Virus record (IMG/VR): IMGVR_UViG_3300048065_001187
Span: 1-64,000 of that record
DNA from: a virus
Strand: one strand, 5' to 3'
DNA length: 64,000 bases
The notes under the pieces are model-generated. The model saw only the letters and a program-made list of their open reading frames with translations. It searched no databases and had not been told where the DNA came from. The position numbers and the translations under genes are program-made. Positions 14,276 to 43,601 of this stretch are shown in pieces. Numbering within the stretch: position 1 is the stretch's first letter; each line of letters begins with the position of its first letter.

Positions 14276-15417
14276 GCTTTATAGATCCAGATAAATATAA
14301 TATAAAATTTTCGTCATTACCAAATATAGACGAAAGGGAATATGTATCAGAAGAAGAAAATGATATATTGACTCAATCTGAAGGCGGTCTTTTTATAAAA
14401 ATTGAAACAGAGGAAAAAGAAGGTGATGGGATAGAATGCAAAAACTTATGCAGAGAAAATGCTGTTGATTCAGGTAGTTTTACCATTTCAAATTCTTGCA
14501 CAATGCCTTTAACTATCACTGGATTTAAAATGACTGATCCTGAAAGATTCTCTCTTTTTAAATTCCCAGATTATACTGGAGTTAAAGTTTATCACTCTGG
14601 AATAATAGAGCAGTTACCGTTTACCCTAGAACCGGACCAAAAAAAACAAATACATACCTTTTTTCATCCACTTTACGATGAGTTAATGTCTGGAAACTCC
14701 AGCACAATATTGAACAGAACAGGTGATCAATTCGGATCCTATGTCAAAATCAAACCTGGGTTTCCTATACTAAATTGCGAAGATGGAGATAGCTGCAGAC
14801 CTCAAATTATTTTGACAGGAGAATTTTTATGCGAAGAAAAAGGGTTACCTCAATGGATGGACAACAAAGAAAACTTTGAAGCTTCAGATATTGAATTAAT
14901 TAAATTTCCTGATATAGTTAATGAATTTTTCTTATTAAAAAAAGATACACTGGAATACAGTAACCCCAATAGGAGGTATTCAATTAAAAACTGGTATTCA
15001 GGTTTAAGTGGGGCTATTGAAAGTTATGGGGGCTTATATGGAACTGAATGGATTACACAGAATGGAGATTGGGGTATCACAGGCTCCTTGACATTGCTTT
15101 TTGATATTGTCACGGGAATTATGTATAGAAACGAACACGATACCAAGGAAACACTTTTCAATACAGAAGTAGATAAATTTTTTGAATACAATGACATTAT
15201 AAATTTTAGTTCATCTATTAAAAAAGAAGATATCATTGAGCTAGAATTTGAAGGTGATAGATATACTGGGTTCATGATCGACAATGAAGCTGGAGATAAT
15301 ATTGAAATAATGTCAGATCAAACAGTCTTTTTTAAAACAAGAAATTTAGTGGATATAGATATATTTCTTTGCGATAGAGGAGATTATGAAGTAGAACAAA
15401 TTAAATCAGCAACATGA
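14272..15417 (+). CDS. Tail-associated protein with an Ig-like (ASH/choice-of-anchor D-like) domain
   Basis: The pattern SFTISNSCTMPLTITGFKMT...F...LPFTLEPDQKKQIHTFFHP is typical of ASH-type Ig folds. The gene has ATGA overlaps at both ends. Confidence 0.55.
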   Translation: MSFIDPDKYNIKFSSLPNIDEREYVSEEENDILTQSEGGLFIKIETEEKEGDGIECKNLCRENAVDSGSFTISNSCTMPLTITGFKMTDPERFSLFKFPDYTGVKVYHSGIIEQLPFTLEPDQKKQIHTFFHPLYDELMSGNSSTILNRTGDQFGSYVKIKPGFPILNCEDGDSCRPQIILTGEFLCEEKGLPQWMDNKENFEASDIELIKFPDIVNEFFLLKKDTLEYSNPNRRYSIKNWYSGLSGAIESYGGLYGTEWITQNGDWGITGSLTLLFDIVTGIMYRNEHDTKETLFNTEVDKFFEYNDIINFSSSIKKEDIIELEFEGDRYTGFMIDNEAGDNIEIMSDQTVFFKTRNLVDIDIFLCDRGDYEVEQIKSAT

Positions 15418-16448
15418 GAGACACAAAAGCATACGTAAAAGAAATATTTCAAATTGAACCCTCAACAATTGTATCTCTTTATAAAATAAATTTAAGAGAT
15501 CGAGGGCAATACTTATTTCATGCCGGAGAAAATGGATATAAAAAAAGAATAATATTCAATGGAGAGAATTATGACTTTATGCCAATCAAGGCAGAGGGGT
15601 TTGAGATGCATGGCGACGGAAGGTTGCCTAGGCCAAAGATGACTTTTTCTAATCACCAAGGAAATGTTTCTTTGCGTTTAGGAATTTTTAAAGATTTTAT
15701 TAATTACAAAGTTACCCGGATAAAAACTTTTGTAAAATATCTAGACAAAGAAAACTTTCCAAACAATATCAACCCTCACGCGGAATCAAGCCCCGATGTT
15801 TCTTTTACTGAAGATATATTCTTTGTTAATCAAAAGGTAGCAGAGACCGATCAAATTGTAGAGTTTGAATTGGTTTCATTGCTTGAGCTTCAAAACGCAA
15901 GCATTCCATCAAGAACAATGTATTCTAATTATTGCTCGTGGCAGTATAGAAGCGATATTGGGTGCGGTTACAGAGGTAAACCTGTATCTGATGATAAAAA
16001 CAAGCGTTTTGTTCCTAGCGGATATTCAGGTCAAATGGTCGGAGAAGATTCTTATTTTCCAACAGAATACGGTGCGACAGAGTTTGGAAAAAAAAATGAA
16101 GAGGATGAGTACCCTGTGTGGTCAAGAACAGGAACTTATAATAAAGGAGATATTGTCAGAATAGAACCATTTGACGATGATAAAGCTATTTACCCCGTCA
16201 GTATTTATGTTTGCACACAAGATAATGCCAGATCGCATCCTGCCTTAGATAGAGAGAAGTGGACTCTCGATGATTGCGATAAGACACTTTGTGGCTGTAG
16301 ACTTAGATTTTCTGATCACGCTATTGAAGCTGGGGGTGGAGTTAGAATGCAAGCGAATAATCTAGAGGAAGATGTTAGTTGGACGGAACTAAACAATGGA
16401 TTACCTTACGGAGGTTTTCCTGGCATAGACCCTTATGAGTTTAAATAA
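15414..16448 (+). CDS. Minor tail protein L (lambda gpL-like, Fe-S-binding cysteines) with a CBM-like insertion
   Basis: Motifs include PIKAEGFEMHGDGRLPRPKMTFSN, VTRIKTFVKYLD, CSWQYRSDIGCGY, DDCDKTLCGCRLRF and LPYGGFPG. The insert is WSRTGTYNKGDIVR...YVC. Confidence 0.92.
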   Translation: MRDTKAYVKEIFQIEPSTIVSLYKINLRDRGQYLFHAGENGYKKRIIFNGENYDFMPIKAEGFEMHGDGRLPRPKMTFSNHQGNVSLRLGIFKDFINYKVTRIKTFVKYLDKENFPNNINPHAESSPDVSFTEDIFFVNQKVAETDQIVEFELVSLLELQNASIPSRTMYSNYCSWQYRSDIGCGYRGKPVSDDKNKRFVPSGYSGQMVGEDSYFPTEYGATEFGKKNEEDEYPVWSRTGTYNKGDIVRIEPFDDDKAIYPVSIYVCTQDNARSHPALDREKWTLDDCDKTLCGCRLRFSDHAIEAGGGVRMQANNLEEDVSWTELNNGLPYGGFPGIDPYEFK

Positions 16449-17160
16449 TTTTCATGATAAGATAATATCTCATGCTGAAAGCAAACCAGATCAAGAAGTT
16501 TGCGGGGTAGTTTTACTATGCCCCGATCTTTCTGTTGAAATAAAACAAGAAAATAATATTAATCCTGACCCGGTAAATTCTTTTACTATATCGCCGCAAA
16601 AATTAATAACTTATCAAGTTAAATATAATCTATTGGGAATCTATCATACTCATCCATTTTCAGACGAAAATCCATCAGAGCAAGATATTATTAATTCTGA
16701 AGAATCTGGTATACCTTATTTAATATATAGTTTAATTACAAAGAAGTTTTTTCTTTATTACCCCGAATCTTTTGAGCCTGATAGTTTAATAGGCAGGCCA
16801 TACATCAAAGGCTTCCATGAATGCACTTGCTTGTTAAAAGATTATTTTATTAAAAATTTAAATATCAATATAACGCAATGGAATAAAAACTATTGGTTAA
16901 CAGAATCAGATCAAGAAGCTAATAAGCTACTTATTGATATATTAAATACAAATACTGATAGAGTAGAAATACAGAATATTAAAAAGCATGATATACTGGT
17001 GTTTCAAATAAAGAAAAACGGAAGAAAGCATGTGGGCATTTACCTTGGTGATGATTATTTTATTCATCAATGTGGGCACAGTATCTCCAGGAAAGATATA
17101 CTCGATAGTCGATGGCAATCAAAAATAAAAGGAGCATACAGGCACCGATCTTTAGTGTAA
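16435..17160 (+). CDS. Tail assembly protein K (JAB/MPN plus NlpC/P60 domains)
   Basis: JAB motif EVCG...YHTHP...PSEQD. NlpC/P60 part LIGRPY..GFHEC...HVGIYLGDDYFIH. Sits between the L and I genes as in lambda. Confidence 0.92.
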   Translation: MSLNNFHDKIISHAESKPDQEVCGVVLLCPDLSVEIKQENNINPDPVNSFTISPQKLITYQVKYNLLGIYHTHPFSDENPSEQDIINSEESGIPYLIYSLITKKFFLYYPESFEPDSLIGRPYIKGFHECTCLLKDYFIKNLNINITQWNKNYWLTESDQEANKLLIDILNTNTDRVEIQNIKKHDILVFQIKKNGRKHVGIYLGDDYFIHQCGHSISRKDILDSRWQSKIKGAYRHRSLV

Positions 17161-38453: not shown

Positions 38454-40904
38454 ATGGATATAAAAGTTAAGAAGAGAAATGGCCGCCTAGAAAGCTTTGA
38501 AGTAGACAAAATTAATGCAAGTGCACAAAGAGCTTGTGAAGAAATAGAAGATGTTTCTGCGAGCGAAATAGTCTTAGATGCACAACTTCAATTATTTGAT
38601 AAAATAACTACCAAAGAAATAGATCAAGCACTGATATTATCTGCTCGTGAAAAGATAGAAAAAGAACCCAATTATTCTTACGCTGCTGCACAGCTTTTAT
38701 TAAATTGTTTGTACAAAGAAGTATTTAAAGAAGGCGTAGATTCCGATGCGTTTAGACTTCAGTATAGAAAAAGCTTTATACAAAATATAAAAAAATTAGT
38801 AAAAGAACACAGGTTAGATAAAAGACTACTTGACTTTGATTTAAATAAATTATCTAATGCATTAAAAATTAGAAGAGATAAAGACTTTAAATACTTAGGT
38901 ATACAAATTCTTTTTGATAGGTATTTCATTAAGCAAGATAGTAAAATAATGGAAACACCTCAAGCCTTTTGGATGCGTGTGGCAATGGGATTAGCTATAA
39001 ACGAAAAAGATAAAGATGAAAAGGCTATAGAATTTTACGATCTATTTAGCCAATTTTTATATACCCCATCGACCCCAACCCTTTTCAACAGTGGAACTAC
39101 TCACTCGCAGCTTAGTTCTTGCTACCTTAATACTTTTGATGATAGTATTGACGGCATCTTTGACGGTGCTTGGCAAGAAGCTCGTAAATCAAAGTACGCC
39201 GGTGGCCTTGGCCTTGATGTTACCCCTTTTCGGTCTACAGGTTCTCATATTCAGGGAACTAACGGCATTTCTAGCGGCTTGGTCCCTTGGCTTAAAATAT
39301 ACAACGATCTTTTGGTCGCAGTAAATCAAGGTGGTAAGCGTCCAGGAGCTGGATGCGCTTATCTTGAGCCATGGCATTTAGATTTCGAAGATTTCTTAAA
39401 TCTAAGAAGAAATACAGGAGATGATAGACTTCGTTGCCATGACATGAACACAGCATCTTGGGTTCCAGACGAATTTATGCGTAGGGTTCAAAATGAAGAC
39501 GCCTGGTATTTCTTTGATCCAAGAGATACTGAAGATGAAAACGGAAAAACCCTTCACGATCTTTTCGGAGAGGATTTTGATAATCGATACGACGAGTTAT
39601 GTAAAGCAGCAGACGCAGGTTCAATTAAAAATTATCGAATAATTCCCGCAAAAGAATTGTGGAAAAAAATGCTGAAAGTTTTATTCGAAACATCCCATCC
39701 TTGGAATACATTTAAAGATCCTTGTAATATACGTTATACAAATCAACATGAAGGAGCAGTTCACAGCTCTAATCTTTGCACAGAAATCACACTACATACC
39801 AAATCTTCTAAATATAAAGCAGGCGAAAAAGTAGAAATTGGAGAAACTGCGGTTTGTAATTTAGGCTCAGTTAATTTAAAAAATCATTTAATAGAGAAGA
39901 CTACTCACGGAAAATCTAATTATGCAATTGACTACAAAAAGTTAGAGTCAACAATTCATACGGCAATTAGAATACTTGACAATGTCATTGATATTAATTT
40001 TTACCCGACTAAGGAAGCGGAAAAATCCAATATTCAACATAGACCAATAGGCTTAGGCATGATGGGCTTGCACGACATTCTACATATGCTTGAGATTCAA
40101 ATTGACAGCAATGAAGCAATAGAATTTAACGATAAGCTTTTTGAGTTTTATTCGTGTCATGCAATATATGCAAGCTCCCTCATTGCCAAAGAAAAAGGAT
40201 CCTATAATACCTACGAAGGATCTTTATGGAGCAAGAGTATTTTACCTATCGATTCTTACAAAAACTTAATGTCTTACAGAGGTAAAAAAGAAGGGCTAAA
40301 AGGCGAAACCTTAGATACTTGGCAAAAAGTGCGTGAGCAAATTAAAGAATCGGGCATGAGAAACTCTAATGTTATGGCTATTGCTCCTACCGCAACTATT
40401 GGTTACATTAATGGAATAGAACAAAGCATAGAGCCAAACTTCTCAGTTCTTTTTGTCTACGAGAATAAAAGCGGTAATTTCTATATCACTAACGAACATT
40501 TTGTTAAAGATATGAAAAATAAAGGTCTCTGGTCGTCCGAAATATCTGCTATGGTGAAAAGTGTTGACGGCGATTTATCACTATTAAATGGATCTATACC
40601 AGAAGAATTGAAACAAAAGTACAAGACAGCATTCGATAGAGATATGTTTAAACTAATCGAATGTAATGCGGTGCGTCAAAAATGGATCGACCAAGCAGTA
40701 AGCTTTAATCTTTATAATAAGACAACATCCTTAAAATATTTAAATGATGTTTACATAGCTTGCTGGGAAGCAGGTTTAAAAACTACATATTACCTAAGAA
40801 ATAGAGCTGCCAGTAAAGTAGAGAAGTCAACAACAGAAGAAGCACCATCTGCATGCAGTATCGAGGCGATGAAAAATGGAGAAACTTGCGAAAGCTGCCA
40901 ATAA
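38454..40904 (+). CDS. nrdA: Ribonucleoside-diphosphate reductase alpha subunit with an N-terminal ATP cone
   Basis: VKKRNG ATP cone, ETPQAFWMRVAMGL, TPTLFNSG..QLSSCY, SSNLCTEI, VCNLGS, IAPTATI, KTTYYLR and a C-terminal CESC. Confidence 0.98.
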   Translation: MDIKVKKRNGRLESFEVDKINASAQRACEEIEDVSASEIVLDAQLQLFDKITTKEIDQALILSAREKIEKEPNYSYAAAQLLLNCLYKEVFKEGVDSDAFRLQYRKSFIQNIKKLVKEHRLDKRLLDFDLNKLSNALKIRRDKDFKYLGIQILFDRYFIKQDSKIMETPQAFWMRVAMGLAINEKDKDEKAIEFYDLFSQFLYTPSTPTLFNSGTTHSQLSSCYLNTFDDSIDGIFDGAWQEARKSKYAGGLGLDVTPFRSTGSHIQGTNGISSGLVPWLKIYNDLLVAVNQGGKRPGAGCAYLEPWHLDFEDFLNLRRNTGDDRLRCHDMNTASWVPDEFMRRVQNEDAWYFFDPRDTEDENGKTLHDLFGEDFDNRYDELCKAADAGSIKNYRIIPAKELWKKMLKVLFETSHPWNTFKDPCNIRYTNQHEGAVHSSNLCTEITLHTKSSKYKAGEKVEIGETAVCNLGSVNLKNHLIEKTTHGKSNYAIDYKKLESTIHTAIRILDNVIDINFYPTKEAEKSNIQHRPIGLGMMGLHDILHMLEIQIDSNEAIEFNDKLFEFYSCHAIYASSLIAKEKGSYNTYEGSLWSKSILPIDSYKNLMSYRGKKEGLKGETLDTWQKVREQIKESGMRNSNVMAIAPTATIGYINGIEQSIEPNFSVLFVYENKSGNFYITNEHFVKDMKNKGLWSSEISAMVKSVDGDLSLLNGSIPEELKQKYKTAFDRDMFKLIECNAVRQKWIDQAVSFNLYNKTTSLKYLNDVYIACWEAGLKTTYYLRNRAASKVEKSTTEEAPSACSIEAMKNGETCESCQ

Positions 40905-41304
40905 ACAAGCTGCTGGCGTAGCCGTAGTTCATGGTTCATCTATTTTATTGGCTAAAAGAATAGAGGTTTGCCCTTTTTCAAAAAAACCCATTACATTTGG
41001 CGGGTATTGGTCTATTTTTTCAGGGGCGATGGACGAAAACGAGTCACCTCCTGTATGTGCTTGTAGAGAGTTAAAAGAAGAAACACAAATTGATATTGGT
41101 GTATCTGAGATTGAATTTATTTGTTCATATAAAAATCCCCATAGTTTACTACATTTATATTGCCACAGATCTGATGAGCTACTTGCTCCTAAATTAAACT
41201 TCGAGCACACTCAATTTGGATGGTTTGATTTAAATACACTAGATTCATTAACTGAAAAAATAGACCTTGACTTAATGAAGGTCATTTCTAATTTTGTTTA
41301 CTAA
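40876..41304 (+). CDS. Nudix hydrolase
   Basis: Nudix box WSIFSGAMDENESPPVCACRELKEET and LNFEHTQFGW. Confidence 0.88.
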   Translation: MEKLAKAANKQAAGVAVVHGSSILLAKRIEVCPFSKKPITFGGYWSIFSGAMDENESPPVCACRELKEETQIDIGVSEIEFICSYKNPHSLLHLYCHRSDELLAPKLNFEHTQFGWFDLNTLDSLTEKIDLDLMKVISNFVY

Positions 41305-42016: not shown

Positions 42017-43030
42017 ATGTCTGATAAAAGTGGTCAATTACTATCTGAAAATATTGCTGGTGTAAATCGAATTTTGCCTCATAAGCATAAATATGCATGG
42101 GATTTATTCCTTAAAAGTTGCGCAAACAACTGGATGCCTACAGAAATATCCATGCAAAACGATATCAATCAATGGAAAAACAATGAAATCACAGAAGATG
42201 AAAAGCTCCTTGTTAAGCGTTGTCTTGGCTTTTTTGCAGGAAGTGAGTCTCTCGTTGGTAATAACTTGCTTCTTTCTGCTTTTAGATTTATTACTGACGC
42301 TGAATGCCGTCAGTATATTCTGCGTCAAGCTTTTGAAGAAAGCCTTCACAATCTTACGATAGTTTATGTTTGTGACAGTTTAGACTTAGATATCGACGAA
42401 GTTTTTACTGCTTACGAAACCATCCCGAGTATAAAAGCTAAAGATGACTTTCTTATGGGTATAACAGATGATCTCAGTCGCCAAGATTTTGATGCTACCA
42501 CTACAGAAGGCAAACAAGAAATACTTAGAAATTTCTTAACATATTGGATTGTGTGCGAAGGAACATTCTTTTTTAGCGGATTTGCTATGCTTCTTGCCCT
42601 TGGTCGTCAAAACAAGCTGCAGGGTATCTCTGATCAAATTAAATACACGCTTAGAGATGAAAGCTCTCACATTGCGTTTGGAACATATTTAATTAATACA
42701 TTAATTGAGCAAAACCCAGAGATATGGACTCAAGAAATACAAAATGAGTTTATTGATCATATGAAAAAAGCGGTAGAACTAGAGATAGCATATGCAAAAG
42801 ATGTTTTACCTACAGGCATTCTCGGTTTAAATTCTGATATGTTTGTTGACTACATGTATTATATAGGAAACCGAAGGCTTGAAGCTATAGGTTTAGATTA
42901 TCGTTTTCCTAGTGACAAAAATCCATTTCCATGGCTAGGAGAGGTAGTTGACGTTCAAGCTATGGGAAATTTCTTCGAAAGAAGGGTTAGAGAATATCAA
43001 CAAAGCGGCTCATTAGAAGACGATTTTTAA
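42017..43030 (+). CDS. nrdB: Ribonucleotide reductase beta subunit, class Ic (Mn/Fe)-like
   Basis: NWMPTEI, LGFFAGSESLVGNN, RQAFEESLHNLTI, EGTFFFSGF, RDESSH and NFFERRVREY motifs. The first ligand is Glu77 and the radical-Tyr position is Ile115. Confidence 0.96.
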   Translation: MSDKSGQLLSENIAGVNRILPHKHKYAWDLFLKSCANNWMPTEISMQNDINQWKNNEITEDEKLLVKRCLGFFAGSESLVGNNLLLSAFRFITDAECRQYILRQAFEESLHNLTIVYVCDSLDLDIDEVFTAYETIPSIKAKDDFLMGITDDLSRQDFDATTTEGKQEILRNFLTYWIVCEGTFFFSGFAMLLALGRQNKLQGISDQIKYTLRDESSHIAFGTYLINTLIEQNPEIWTQEIQNEFIDHMKKAVELEIAYAKDVLPTGILGLNSDMFVDYMYYIGNRRLEAIGLDYRFPSDKNPFPWLGEVVDVQAMGNFFERRVREYQQSGSLEDDF

Positions 43031-43067: not shown

Positions 43068-43601
43068 TTGGATACTTTTAAATTAAAACTATTAAGACAA
43101 CTAAAAGCTAAATGCTCAGAAATTTCAGAAGAGTTTTCTGAGGTTGATGGATTATTTAATCAGGCTGTCCCTCTTTTTTGCTCTGCTGTTTATTCTTATT
43201 GTGAAGATAATTCTTGCAAAAACCCACTAGATGAATTAGAAGATTCAGAAAAAAAAGACAAGCAAGTTGTCACAGATAATATTAAATCTGTTTACAGAAA
43301 AATAGCTATTCAAACGCACCCTGATAAAGGTGTGAGTGATGAAAATAAAGTTGATCTATATAAAGATGCCGCAAAAGCTAAAAAAAATAACGAAGTAGAT
43401 AAGTTAATTTCTATTGCAAAAGATCTAAAAATTGATATTTCAGATCTAAATTATTCCGATATTAGGTCTATTGAGCAGTCTATATCTGACACAGAAGTTA
43501 AAATTAATAAAATGAGGTCTAGTTACCCATGGATTTGGTTCTTTTCTACAGTTAAAAAAAGAGAAGATATTATATCTAGGTTCGTCCTTAATAAAGTGTA
43601 A
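43068..43601 (+). CDS. J-domain (DnaJ-like) protein
   Basis: IKSVYRKIAIQTHPDKG (HPD motif) lies within a helical protein. Confidence 0.75.
   Translation: MDTFKLKLLRQLKAKCSEISEEFSEVDGLFNQAVPLFCSAVYSYCEDNSCKNPLDELEDSEKKDKQVVTDNIKSVYRKIAIQTHPDKGVSDENKVDLYKDAAKAKKNNEVDKLISIAKDLKIDISDLNYSDIRSIEQSISDTEVKINKMRSSYPWIWFFSTVKKREDIISRFVLNKV

What the first reader, a model, noticed from the sequence alone, without database searches (positions are those of the whole stretch)
42017..43030. Phage NrdB lacks the radical tyrosine: class Ic (Mn/Fe)-type, with Ile at the radical site
Seen: the first metal ligand is Glu77 (GAG, 42245-42247, FFAGSESLVGNN). The residue four after the ligand His111 is Ile115 (ATA, 42359-42361, EESLHNLTI). 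Known: class Ia R2 has Asp and Tyr at these sites, whereas Chlamydia trachomatis class Ic R2 has Glu89/Glu120/His123/Phe127 with the same spacing and uses a Mn(IV)/Fe(III) cofactor. Inference: this is a Tyr-radical-free RNR in a phage, with Ile instead of the usual Phe. It may resist host NO or radical stress, and the Chlamydia-like sequence hints at a PVC-superphylum host.
Basis: partly seen in the sequence, partly recalled or inferred. Interest (0 to 1): 0.78.

Follow-up and report, generated by a model that had tools for sequence, protein, structure and literature searches.

The report
Tyrosine-less (Ile-type) phage RNR small subunit
An uncultured 150-kb marine phage encodes a ribonucleotide reductase whose small subunit has isoleucine where most such enzymes keep the radical tyrosine; this reading holds, but the Ile/Val viral lineage is common in ocean viromes, was flagged in a 2026 preprint, has never been tested biochemically, and says nothing about a Chlamydia-like host.

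Summary
ORF 42017-43030 (+) encodes a 337-aa NrdB with Glu77 (GAG 42245-47) as first metal ligand and Ile115 (ATA 42359-61) four residues after ligand His111. It aligns without gaps across the metal site to C. trachomatis R2c, with I115 opposite F127.

All six metal ligands are present, as are the Trp39 and C-terminal Tyr327 relay residues. An intact class I NrdA lies 1.1 kb upstream. The gene is under strong purifying selection (dN/dS about 0.03).

Ile is not an assembly error. Eight independent IMG/VR contigs carry ATA or ATT at this codon and 72 carry Val. No Phe, Leu or Tyr occurs among about 200 close relatives.

The Ile/Val proteins form their own supported clade, found almost only on viral contigs. 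The window protein is about 50% identical both to cellular Glu/Phe (class Ic) and to Asp/Tyr (class Ia) relatives, so the PVC-host hint is unsupported.

The clade also has three pocket changes of its own: Asn112, Thr211 and Cys180.

This lineage was named 'subclass Ic-like' in a 2026 preprint (PMC12918982). Ile/Val at this site was noted as early as 2010. Earlier follow-ups of this scan reached the same verdict on other phage genomes. The cofactor is untested.

The parts
42017..43030 (+). nrdB, class I RNR beta subunit, 337 aa, Tyr-less Ile type
   Evidence: ORF. Pfam PF00268 at 254 bits. NCBIfam NF005550 at 447 bits against a cut-off of 309. PDB 1SYY at E=3.8e-112. AF2 model pLDDT 89; Foldseek top hit is Ct NrdB Mn/Fe 4m1i, TM 0.90.
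42245..42247 (+). Glu77 (GAG), first metal ligand (Asp in class Ia)
   Evidence: Read. Aligned to Ct E89. Invariant in the Ile/Val clade.
42338..42349 (+). Glu108-Ser-Leu-His111, the first ExxH ligand motif
   Evidence: Invariant over 47 family members.
42350..42352 (+). Asn112, clade-specific residue next to ligand His111 (Thr in other groups)
   Evidence: Asn in 100% of nine diverse Ile/Val lineages and in 0% of 49 other family members.
42359..42361 (+). Ile115 (ATA) at the radical-tyrosine position
   Evidence: Val or Ile in all close relatives.
42554..42559 (+). Cys180 (clade-specific; Met elsewhere) and ligand Glu181
42647..42649 (+). Thr211, at the position of E. coli Ile234 in the hydrophobic pocket (Glu ligand minus 4); Ile in other groups
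   Evidence: Thr in 89% of Ile/Val lineages; Ile in 85-100% of the others. The equivalence to E. coli I234 is inferred from ligand spacing.
42659..42670 (+). Glu215-Ser-Ser-His218, the second ExxH ligand motif
   Evidence: Invariant.
42131..42133 (+). Trp39, electron-relay Trp (Ct W51, E. coli W48)
   Evidence: Invariant.
42995..42997 (+). Tyr327 in the disordered C-terminal tail, the inter-subunit radical-transfer Tyr (Ct Y338, E. coli Y356)
   Evidence: At least 90% conserved. Tail 313-337 has pLDDT below 50.
38454..40904 (+). nrdA, class I RNR alpha subunit, 816 aa, one ATP-cone
   Evidence: Pfam PF03477, PF00317 and PF02867. NCBIfam NF005544 at 1017 bits. Best PDB hit is P. aeruginosa NrdA 5im3, E=2e-238. 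Motifs SSC223, N440-L-C442-T-E444, C468, Y779-Y780 and C812-E-S-C815 are present. It is the only PF02867 match in the 150.8-kb genome.
40876..41304 (+). NUDIX hydrolase between nrdA and nrdB
   Evidence: Pfam PF00293, E=4e-13. Present in 25 of 80 related loci.

Best explanation
The gene encodes a functional beta subunit of a phage class I ribonucleotide reductase that cannot hold a tyrosyl radical. It belongs to a marine, predominantly viral lineage in which the radical-Tyr position is always Val or Ile. By analogy with C. trachomatis R2c, O2 activation of a dinuclear metal site is inferred to store the oxidising equivalent on the metal cluster itself. The site has Glu77, Glu108, His111, Glu181, Glu215 and His218. 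The stored hole would then pass through Trp39 and the C-terminal Tyr327 to the Tyr779-Tyr780 pair and Cys442 of the adjacent NrdA. The cofactor is most likely Mn(IV)/Fe(III), at about 50% given that the enzyme is active. A Mn2 or Fe2 high-valent cluster is the main alternative. Shown here: gene integrity, ligand set, register of the Ile, fold, clade structure, purifying selection, and pairing with nrdA. Inferred: the metal identity and the radical-transfer route.
For: The alignment to Ct R2c is gapless, with all ligands and W51, Y222, F197 and Y338 equivalents kept. The AF2 model (pLDDT 89) matches Ct Mn/Fe NrdB best, TM 0.90. Across 150 family representatives the first ligand and the radical site co-vary: D/Y 42, E/F 26, E/V 10, E/L 8, E/I 5. 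Ile/Val rows form one supported clade, SH-aLRT 98 and 96. 325 IMG/VR contigs encode a relative; the 80 closest are all Val (72) or Ile (8). Median dN/dS is 0.03 at saturated dS. nrdA lies upstream on the same strand in 53 of 68 loci with enough flank and has all catalytic motifs. The phage has a single alpha and a single beta and no NrdI. Y117 is not conserved within the clade (T, V, I or D in other lineages), so it cannot be a hidden radical site. The literature describes the same Ile/Val viral 'Ic-like' group, anticorrelated with iron.
Against: No member of this clade has been characterised. Metal identity cannot be read from sequence. The clade is not nested in the clade of characterised Ic enzymes (Chlamydia, Saccharopolyspora) in the best tree. 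It carries its own changes next to the ligands and in the pocket (N112, C180, T211), which could signify different chemistry. The Ct activation-pathway Tyr (Y222, here Y210) is not invariant in the clade: Phe or Leu in two lineages.
Confidence: 0.8

Rival explanations
1. The enzyme is Tyr-less and active but uses a different cluster from Chlamydia R2c. Candidates are a class Id-like Mn(IV)/Mn(III) cofactor assembled with superoxide, or an Fe(IV)/Fe(III) cluster. The Ile/Val clade would then be a separate subclass rather than class Ic.
For: The clade is separate in trees. It has clade-specific Asn112, Cys180 and Thr211 around the site. The preprint kept it apart from Ic and says the cofactor is unknown. 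Glu at ligand 1 also occurs together with Tyr in six representatives, so Glu alone does not specify Mn/Fe.
Against: The closest solved structures by sequence and fold are the two Mn/Fe R2c proteins. The F197 equivalent (F185), proposed to matter for R2c metal sites (PMC4118035), is kept.
Confidence: 0.3
2. The radical is held on another protein residue, such as Tyr117, Tyr210, Cys180 or a post-translationally modified residue, rather than on the metal.
For: Tyr117 lies two residues from the site. Cys180 next to ligand Glu181 is clade-specific.
Against: Tyr117 equals Ct Y129, which holds no radical, and is replaced by T, V, I or D in other lineages of the clade. Tyr210 is Phe or Leu in two lineages and Cys180 is Met or Thr in two. 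The metal ligands are complete, unlike metal-free class Ie, and there is no NrdI.
Confidence: 0.05
3. The protein is a non-catalytic R2-like protein, such as an R2lox-type oxidase or a structural partner, and not an RNR subunit.
For: Tyr-less R2 homologues with other roles exist, for example R2lox and apicomplexan R2_e2 (PMC3824934).
Against: R2lox NCBIfam models score far below their cut-offs, 69 against 194 bits. The C-terminal Tyr and tail that R2lox lacks are conserved. The gene is the only beta beside the only alpha in the genome. dN/dS is 0.03.
Confidence: 0.03
4. The ATA codon is an assembly or sequencing error for TAT/TAC (Tyr) or TTT (Phe).
For: None found.
Against: Ile codons occur at this site in 8 independent viral contigs and 45 protein clusters. 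All the others have Val, which is one transition away (GTA to ATA). None has Tyr or Phe.
Confidence: 0.01

Closest known systems
Marine viral 'subclass Ic-like' RNR clade (bioRxiv 2026, PMC12918982; 269 GOV 2.0 alpha sequences)
   Same: The group consists of uncultured marine viruses. The alpha subunit is nearest the NrdAz group. The beta subunit lacks the radical Tyr and has Ile or Val. No member has been characterised. My data match each point: NF005544 and the P. aeruginosa-type alpha, Val/Ile only, and Tara/JGI marine sources.
   Different: I could not compare sequences with the preprint's set, so identity of the clades is inferred from these shared properties. The preprint does not report the pocket co-variation (N112, T211, C180) or the C-terminal Asp335.
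Chlamydia trachomatis class Ic R2 (R2c; PDB 1SYY, 4D8F, 4M1I), Mn(IV)/Fe(III)
   Same: About 50% identity. Same fold, TM 0.90. Glu at ligand 1, full ligand set, redox-inert residue at the Tyr site. W51, F197, Y222 and Y338 equivalents are kept.
   Different: Ile instead of Phe127, Asn instead of Thr124, Thr instead of Ile223, Cys instead of Met192. The partner NrdA has one ATP-cone and 816 aa. The two are in separate clades in the best tree. The cofactor here is untested.
Saccharopolyspora-type R2c (PDB 6Y2N)
   Same: E=1.6e-106, Glu/Phe signature, same register.
   Different: Cellular actinomycete enzyme with Phe. It groups with other cellular Glu/Phe and Asp/Tyr proteins, not with the viral clade.
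Class Ia NrdBz-type R2 of Betaproteobacteria and of Pseudomonas phage vB_PpuM-Peetri / 'Acinetobacter phage MD-2021a'
   Same: Equally similar in sequence, 44-51% identity. Same family model NF005550. These two are the closest deposited phage NrdBs.
   Different: They have Asp at ligand 1 and Tyr at the radical site.

Membership tests
Class I RNR beta subunit (R2, Pfam PF00268) | Ferritin-like fold with two E/D...ExxH motifs | tested here: met
   PF00268 at 254 bits. E77, E108xxH111, E181 and E215xxH218 are present. The AF2 model matches R2 structures.
Class I RNR beta subunit (R2, Pfam PF00268) | C-terminal tail with the conserved Tyr for radical transfer, and a cognate class I alpha | tested here: met
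   Y327 lies in the disordered tail. nrdA sits 1.1 kb upstream with its Cys, Asn, Glu, YY and CxxC motifs.
Class Ic (R2c) | Redox-inert residue in place of the radical Tyr | tested here: met
   I115 aligns to Ct F127. Reference Ic has Phe or Leu. Ile and Val are reported for R2c proteins by Hogbom 2010, as cited in PMC3824934.
Class Ic (R2c) | Glu instead of Asp as first metal ligand | tested here: met
   E77 aligns to Ct E89.
Class Ic (R2c) | Mn(IV)/Fe(III) cofactor as radical initiator | not testable with these tools
   This needs metal reconstitution and spectroscopy. No member of the Ile/Val clade has been characterised.
Class Ic (R2c) | Common descent with the characterised Ic enzymes (Chlamydia, Saccharopolyspora) | tested here: inconclusive
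   The best trees put the Ile/Val clade apart from the group holding PVC and actinomycete Glu/Phe proteins and betaproteobacterial Asp/Tyr proteins. The AU test does not reject Ile/Val plus PVC as one clade, p=0.42.
[quoted passage not shown] | Matches R2lox models; lacks the C-terminal Tyr | tested here: not met
   The best R2lox NCBIfam model scores 68.9 bits against a cut-off of 194. The C-terminal Tyr is present.
Class Ie (metal-free, DOPA radical) and class Ib | Loss of metal ligands (Ie) and an NrdI partner | tested here: not met
   All six ligands are present. No PF07972 match in the genome.

The most novel reading that the evidence does not exclude
The Ile/Val viral clade is a mechanistically distinct class I subclass, not just class Ic with a different plug residue. 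Four positions around metal site 1 change together: Tyr/Phe to a beta-branched Val/Ile, Ile to Thr211, Thr to Asn112 and Met to Cys180. Together they could create a more polar, roomier pocket that tunes a different cofactor or oxidant. Examples would be a Mn2 cluster or another way of holding the hole, suited to iron-poor ocean water.
Probability: 0.2. Interest if true: 0.7.

Novelty: new member of a known kind. Interest (0 to 1): 0.35.

Why it matters
Class I RNR subclasses are defined by how the beta subunit stores its oxidant. Each new solution (Ic, Id, Ie) has taught new metallo-radical chemistry. This lineage is abundant: 325 IMG/VR contigs here and 269 GOV 2.0 populations in the preprint. 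It is strongly conserved and entirely uncharacterised, so it is a cheap, well-defined target for expression and spectroscopy. It may also bear on how ocean phages economise on iron. As a sequence observation, however, it is already in the literature and was already found in this scan.

Tried and rejected
I used independent assemblies instead.
2. A genome scan with the nine-sequence alignment A1 failed for lack of a conserved stretch. It was repeated with alignment A2.
3. PVC origin or host: the best tree does not support it, but the AU test could not reject Ile/Val plus PVC as one clade (p=0.42). The gene's origin therefore stays open, and the host stays unknown.
4. Host clues gave little. The window has no tRNA. 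The phage tmRNA is the standard one-piece type, which is uninformative. GC of about 0.34 suggests only a low-GC host.
5. Tyr117 as a hidden radical site was rejected.
6. R2lox, class Ie and class Ib were rejected.
Their pocket roles rest on ligand spacing and on published E. coli and Ct structures.
8. Hogbom 2010 is not in the library. It is cited second-hand through PMC3824934.

Full report
OBSERVATION. The ORF at 42017..43030 (+) encodes 337 aa. Counting from the ATG in the DNA, codon 77 is GAG (42245-42247, Glu in FFAGSESLVGNN). Codons 108 and 111 are the Glu and His of EESLH. Codon 115 is ATA (42359-42361, Ile).

IDENTITY OF THE PROTEIN.
- Pfam gives Ribonuc_red_sm at 254 bits. NCBIfam gives NF005550 at 447 bits against a cut-off of 309. 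The R2lox models score far below their cut-offs.
- The best solved relatives are C. trachomatis R2c (1SYY, 4D8F; E about 4e-112) and a second R2c (6Y2N; E=1.6e-106). E. coli class Ia R2 scores only about 5e-16.
- The alignment to the chlamydial protein is gapless from residue 6 to 305. It pairs E77 with E89, E108 with E120, H111 with H123 and I115 with F127. In the F127Y mutant 2ANI, I115 pairs with the introduced Tyr.
- The same alignment pairs Y117 with Y129, W39 with W51, F185 with F197, Y210 with Y222 and Y327 with Y338. Within the Ile/Val clade that position is also T, V, I or D.
- An AlphaFold2 model built on a 47-sequence alignment has pLDDT 89 and pTM 0.87. Only the C-terminal tail (313-337) is disordered, as expected for a free R2.
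- Foldseek ranks the Mn/Fe-loaded chlamydial NrdB first, with TM 0.90 and 50% identity.

CONTEXT. The window is the first 64 kb of a 150,766-bp IMG/VR virus record that CheckV rates complete.
- It carries lambda-type tail genes: gpL-like at 15414-16448 and gpK-like NlpC/P60+JAB at 16435-17160. 'Phage' is therefore correct.
- A class I NrdA lies 1.1 kb upstream at 38454-40904. It has 816 aa and one ATP-cone, scores 1017 bits on NF005544, and its nearest structure is P. aeruginosa NrdA.
- A NUDIX gene and two small ORFs lie between nrdA and nrdB.
- NrdA has the expected catalytic motifs: C223, N440/C442/E444, C468, Y779-Y780 and a C-terminal CESC. The assignment of these to the E. coli residues rests on established knowledge.
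- The genome has one alpha and one beta, and no NrdI, glutaredoxin or thioredoxin.

IS THE ILE REAL, AND HOW WIDESPREAD IS IT?
- The 120 closest protein clusters (80-100% identity, from Tara, JGI and ENA marine assemblies) have Val in 74 cases and Ile in 45 at this site.
- IMG/VR holds 325 viral contigs with a relative. The 80 closest have Val in 72 (GTA 63, GTT 7, GTG 2) and Ile in 8 (ATA 6, ATT 2). The synonymous flanks differ between contigs.
- The window's Ile is thus a common G-to-A variant of the majority Val, not an assembly error. Val and Ile interchange repeatedly on the tree.
- No Phe, Leu, Met or Tyr was seen at this site among these roughly 200 close relatives.
- NrdB is under strong purifying selection: median dN/dS is 0.03 at saturated dS.
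- nrdA lies upstream on the same strand in 53 of the 68 loci that have enough flank.

FAMILY-WIDE PATTERN. Among 150 representatives clustered at 50% identity, the first ligand and the radical site co-vary: Asp/Tyr 42, Glu/Phe 26, Glu/Val 10, Glu/Leu 8, Glu/Tyr 6, Glu/Ile 5.
- In two quick IQ-TREE analyses the Ile/Val rows form one supported clade, with SH-aLRT 98 and 96.
- That clade lies apart from a group that mixes three kinds of protein. These are PVC Glu/Phe proteins (Simkania, Planctomycetota, Verrucomicrobiota), actinomycete Glu/Phe proteins (Saccharopolyspora, Nocardiopsis) and betaproteobacterial Asp/Tyr proteins.
- Inside that group a Planctomycetota Glu/Phe protein is sister to a Planctomycetia Asp/Tyr protein with support 99. 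The Ia and Ic signatures have therefore switched more than once.
- An AU test does not reject Ile/Val plus the PVC group as one clade (p=0.42), so the deeper origin stays open.
- Of the 80 best matches in species-representative cellular genomes, 65 are Asp/Tyr, 13 are Glu/Phe and one is Glu/Ile. All except that one are 47-52% identical to the window protein.
- The exception is a 7-kb, 48%-GC contig binned into a marine 'Deinococcota' MAG, at 63% identity. It carries nrdA, a small ORF, nrdB and a YceI-like gene. It holds the only PF02867 match in that MAG. Whether it is cellular or mis-binned is unknown.
- A more distant Ile-type member (P0121, 56% identity) sits in a phage-style nucleotide module. 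That module has an intein-bearing NrdA, an RNA ligase, DHFR and ThyA.
- The nearest deposited phage NrdBs are from Pseudomonas phage Peetri and 'Acinetobacter phage MD-2021a', at 44-46% identity. Both are Asp/Tyr. The Aquificae Joseph's Coat Spring virus NrdB is Glu/Phe.

WHAT ELSE SETS THE CLADE APART. I compared nine diverse Ile/Val lineages with 49 other family members. Five positions are clade-specific:
- Asn112, next to ligand His111; Thr elsewhere.
- Cys180, next to ligand Glu181; Met elsewhere.
- Thr211, four residues before ligand Glu215; Ile in 85-100% of the others.
- Asp335 in the alpha-binding tail; Trp elsewhere.
- Asp94.
By ligand spacing, Thr211 occupies the position of E. coli Ile234. 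That residue, with Phe208 and Phe212 (here the invariant F185 and F189), forms the hydrophobic pocket around Tyr122. This is established knowledge applied by inference. The loss of the aromatic residue therefore comes with a coordinated remodelling of the pocket. I could not measure distances because the model coordinates are not exposed.

MECHANISM. The best-supported reading is an active, Tyr-radical-free class I RNR in which a high-valent dinuclear cluster stores the oxidant. By analogy with the two closest solved proteins the cluster is most likely Mn(IV)/Fe(III). The hole would reach NrdA through Trp39 and Tyr327. The sequence, fold, pairing and selection evidence is shown here. The metal identity and the transfer route are inferred. 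A Mn2 (Id-like) or Fe2 cluster is the main rival.

LITERATURE. A 2026 preprint on GOV 2.0 viral RNRs describes an unknown viral clade nearest NrdAz. Its beta subunits lack the Tyr and carry Ile or Val instead of the reference Phe or Leu. The authors name it 'subclass Ic-like' and count 269 sequences. They find it anticorrelated with iron and most abundant at the deep chlorophyll maximum, and they report no characterised member (PMC12918982). PMC3824934 states that substitution of Phe by Leu, Ile and Val in R2c proteins was documented by Hogbom in 2010. Earlier follow-ups in this scan reached the same verdict for Val-type copies in other phage genomes.

VERDICT. The Mn/Fe cofactor is plausible but untested. 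The PVC-host and NO-resistance ideas have no support. The case is a new member of an already flagged viral lineage. Its remaining interest lies in the untested chemistry and the pocket co-variation.

Noticed in passing
window 22379-64000: The window carries a very large block of sugar-nucleotide and glycan genes. I saw GDP-mannose 4,6-dehydratase, several epimerases, a UDP-glucose dehydrogenase-like gene, a cytidylyltransferase, an HpcH-type aldolase, and GT1, GT2 and GT9-like transferases. This is unusual in extent for a tailed phage.
   Followed up: partly
G000 108068-108435 (L172:8068-8435, +): The phage encodes a full-length, standard one-piece tmRNA (Rfam RF00023, 121 bits). ARAGORN did not call it.
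   Followed up: partly
P0136 (alignment A1 columns 115-261); P0122, P0123, P0127, P0128 and others of about 650 aa; L085:1-2983: Inteins are frequent in this NrdB family. One sits between the ligand Glu and His of the first ExxH motif. Many representatives are about 650 aa and match in two stretches. The NrdA next to P0121 also carries an intein.
   Followed up: no
L090 (JBCCOX010000253.1, 'Deinococcota' MAG contig, 6993 bp): This is the only Ile-type NrdB found in species-representative cellular genomes (63% identity, GC 0.48). It lies next to nrdA and a YceI-like gene and is the only PF02867 match in that MAG. It is either a cellular user of the Ile-type RNR or a mis-binned viral fragment.
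   Followed up: partly
L095 and L102 (Planctomycetota): A Glu/Phe (class Ic signature) NrdB and an Asp/Tyr (class Ia signature) NrdB are sisters with SH-aLRT 99. The two signatures have therefore switched recently within one bacterial lineage.
   Followed up: no
window 43068-43601: A 177-aa ORF just downstream of nrdB has a partial DnaJ (J-domain) match below Pfam's cut-off (24.1 against 27.8 bits). It is present in 20 of 80 related loci.
   Followed up: no
P0148, P0164, P0181, P0192, P0204, P0209, P0252 and others: Several R2-family representatives have lost multiple metal ligands (Ser, Ala, Gly, Asn or Lys at ligand positions). These are candidates for metal-free or non-catalytic R2-like proteins.
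   Followed up: no
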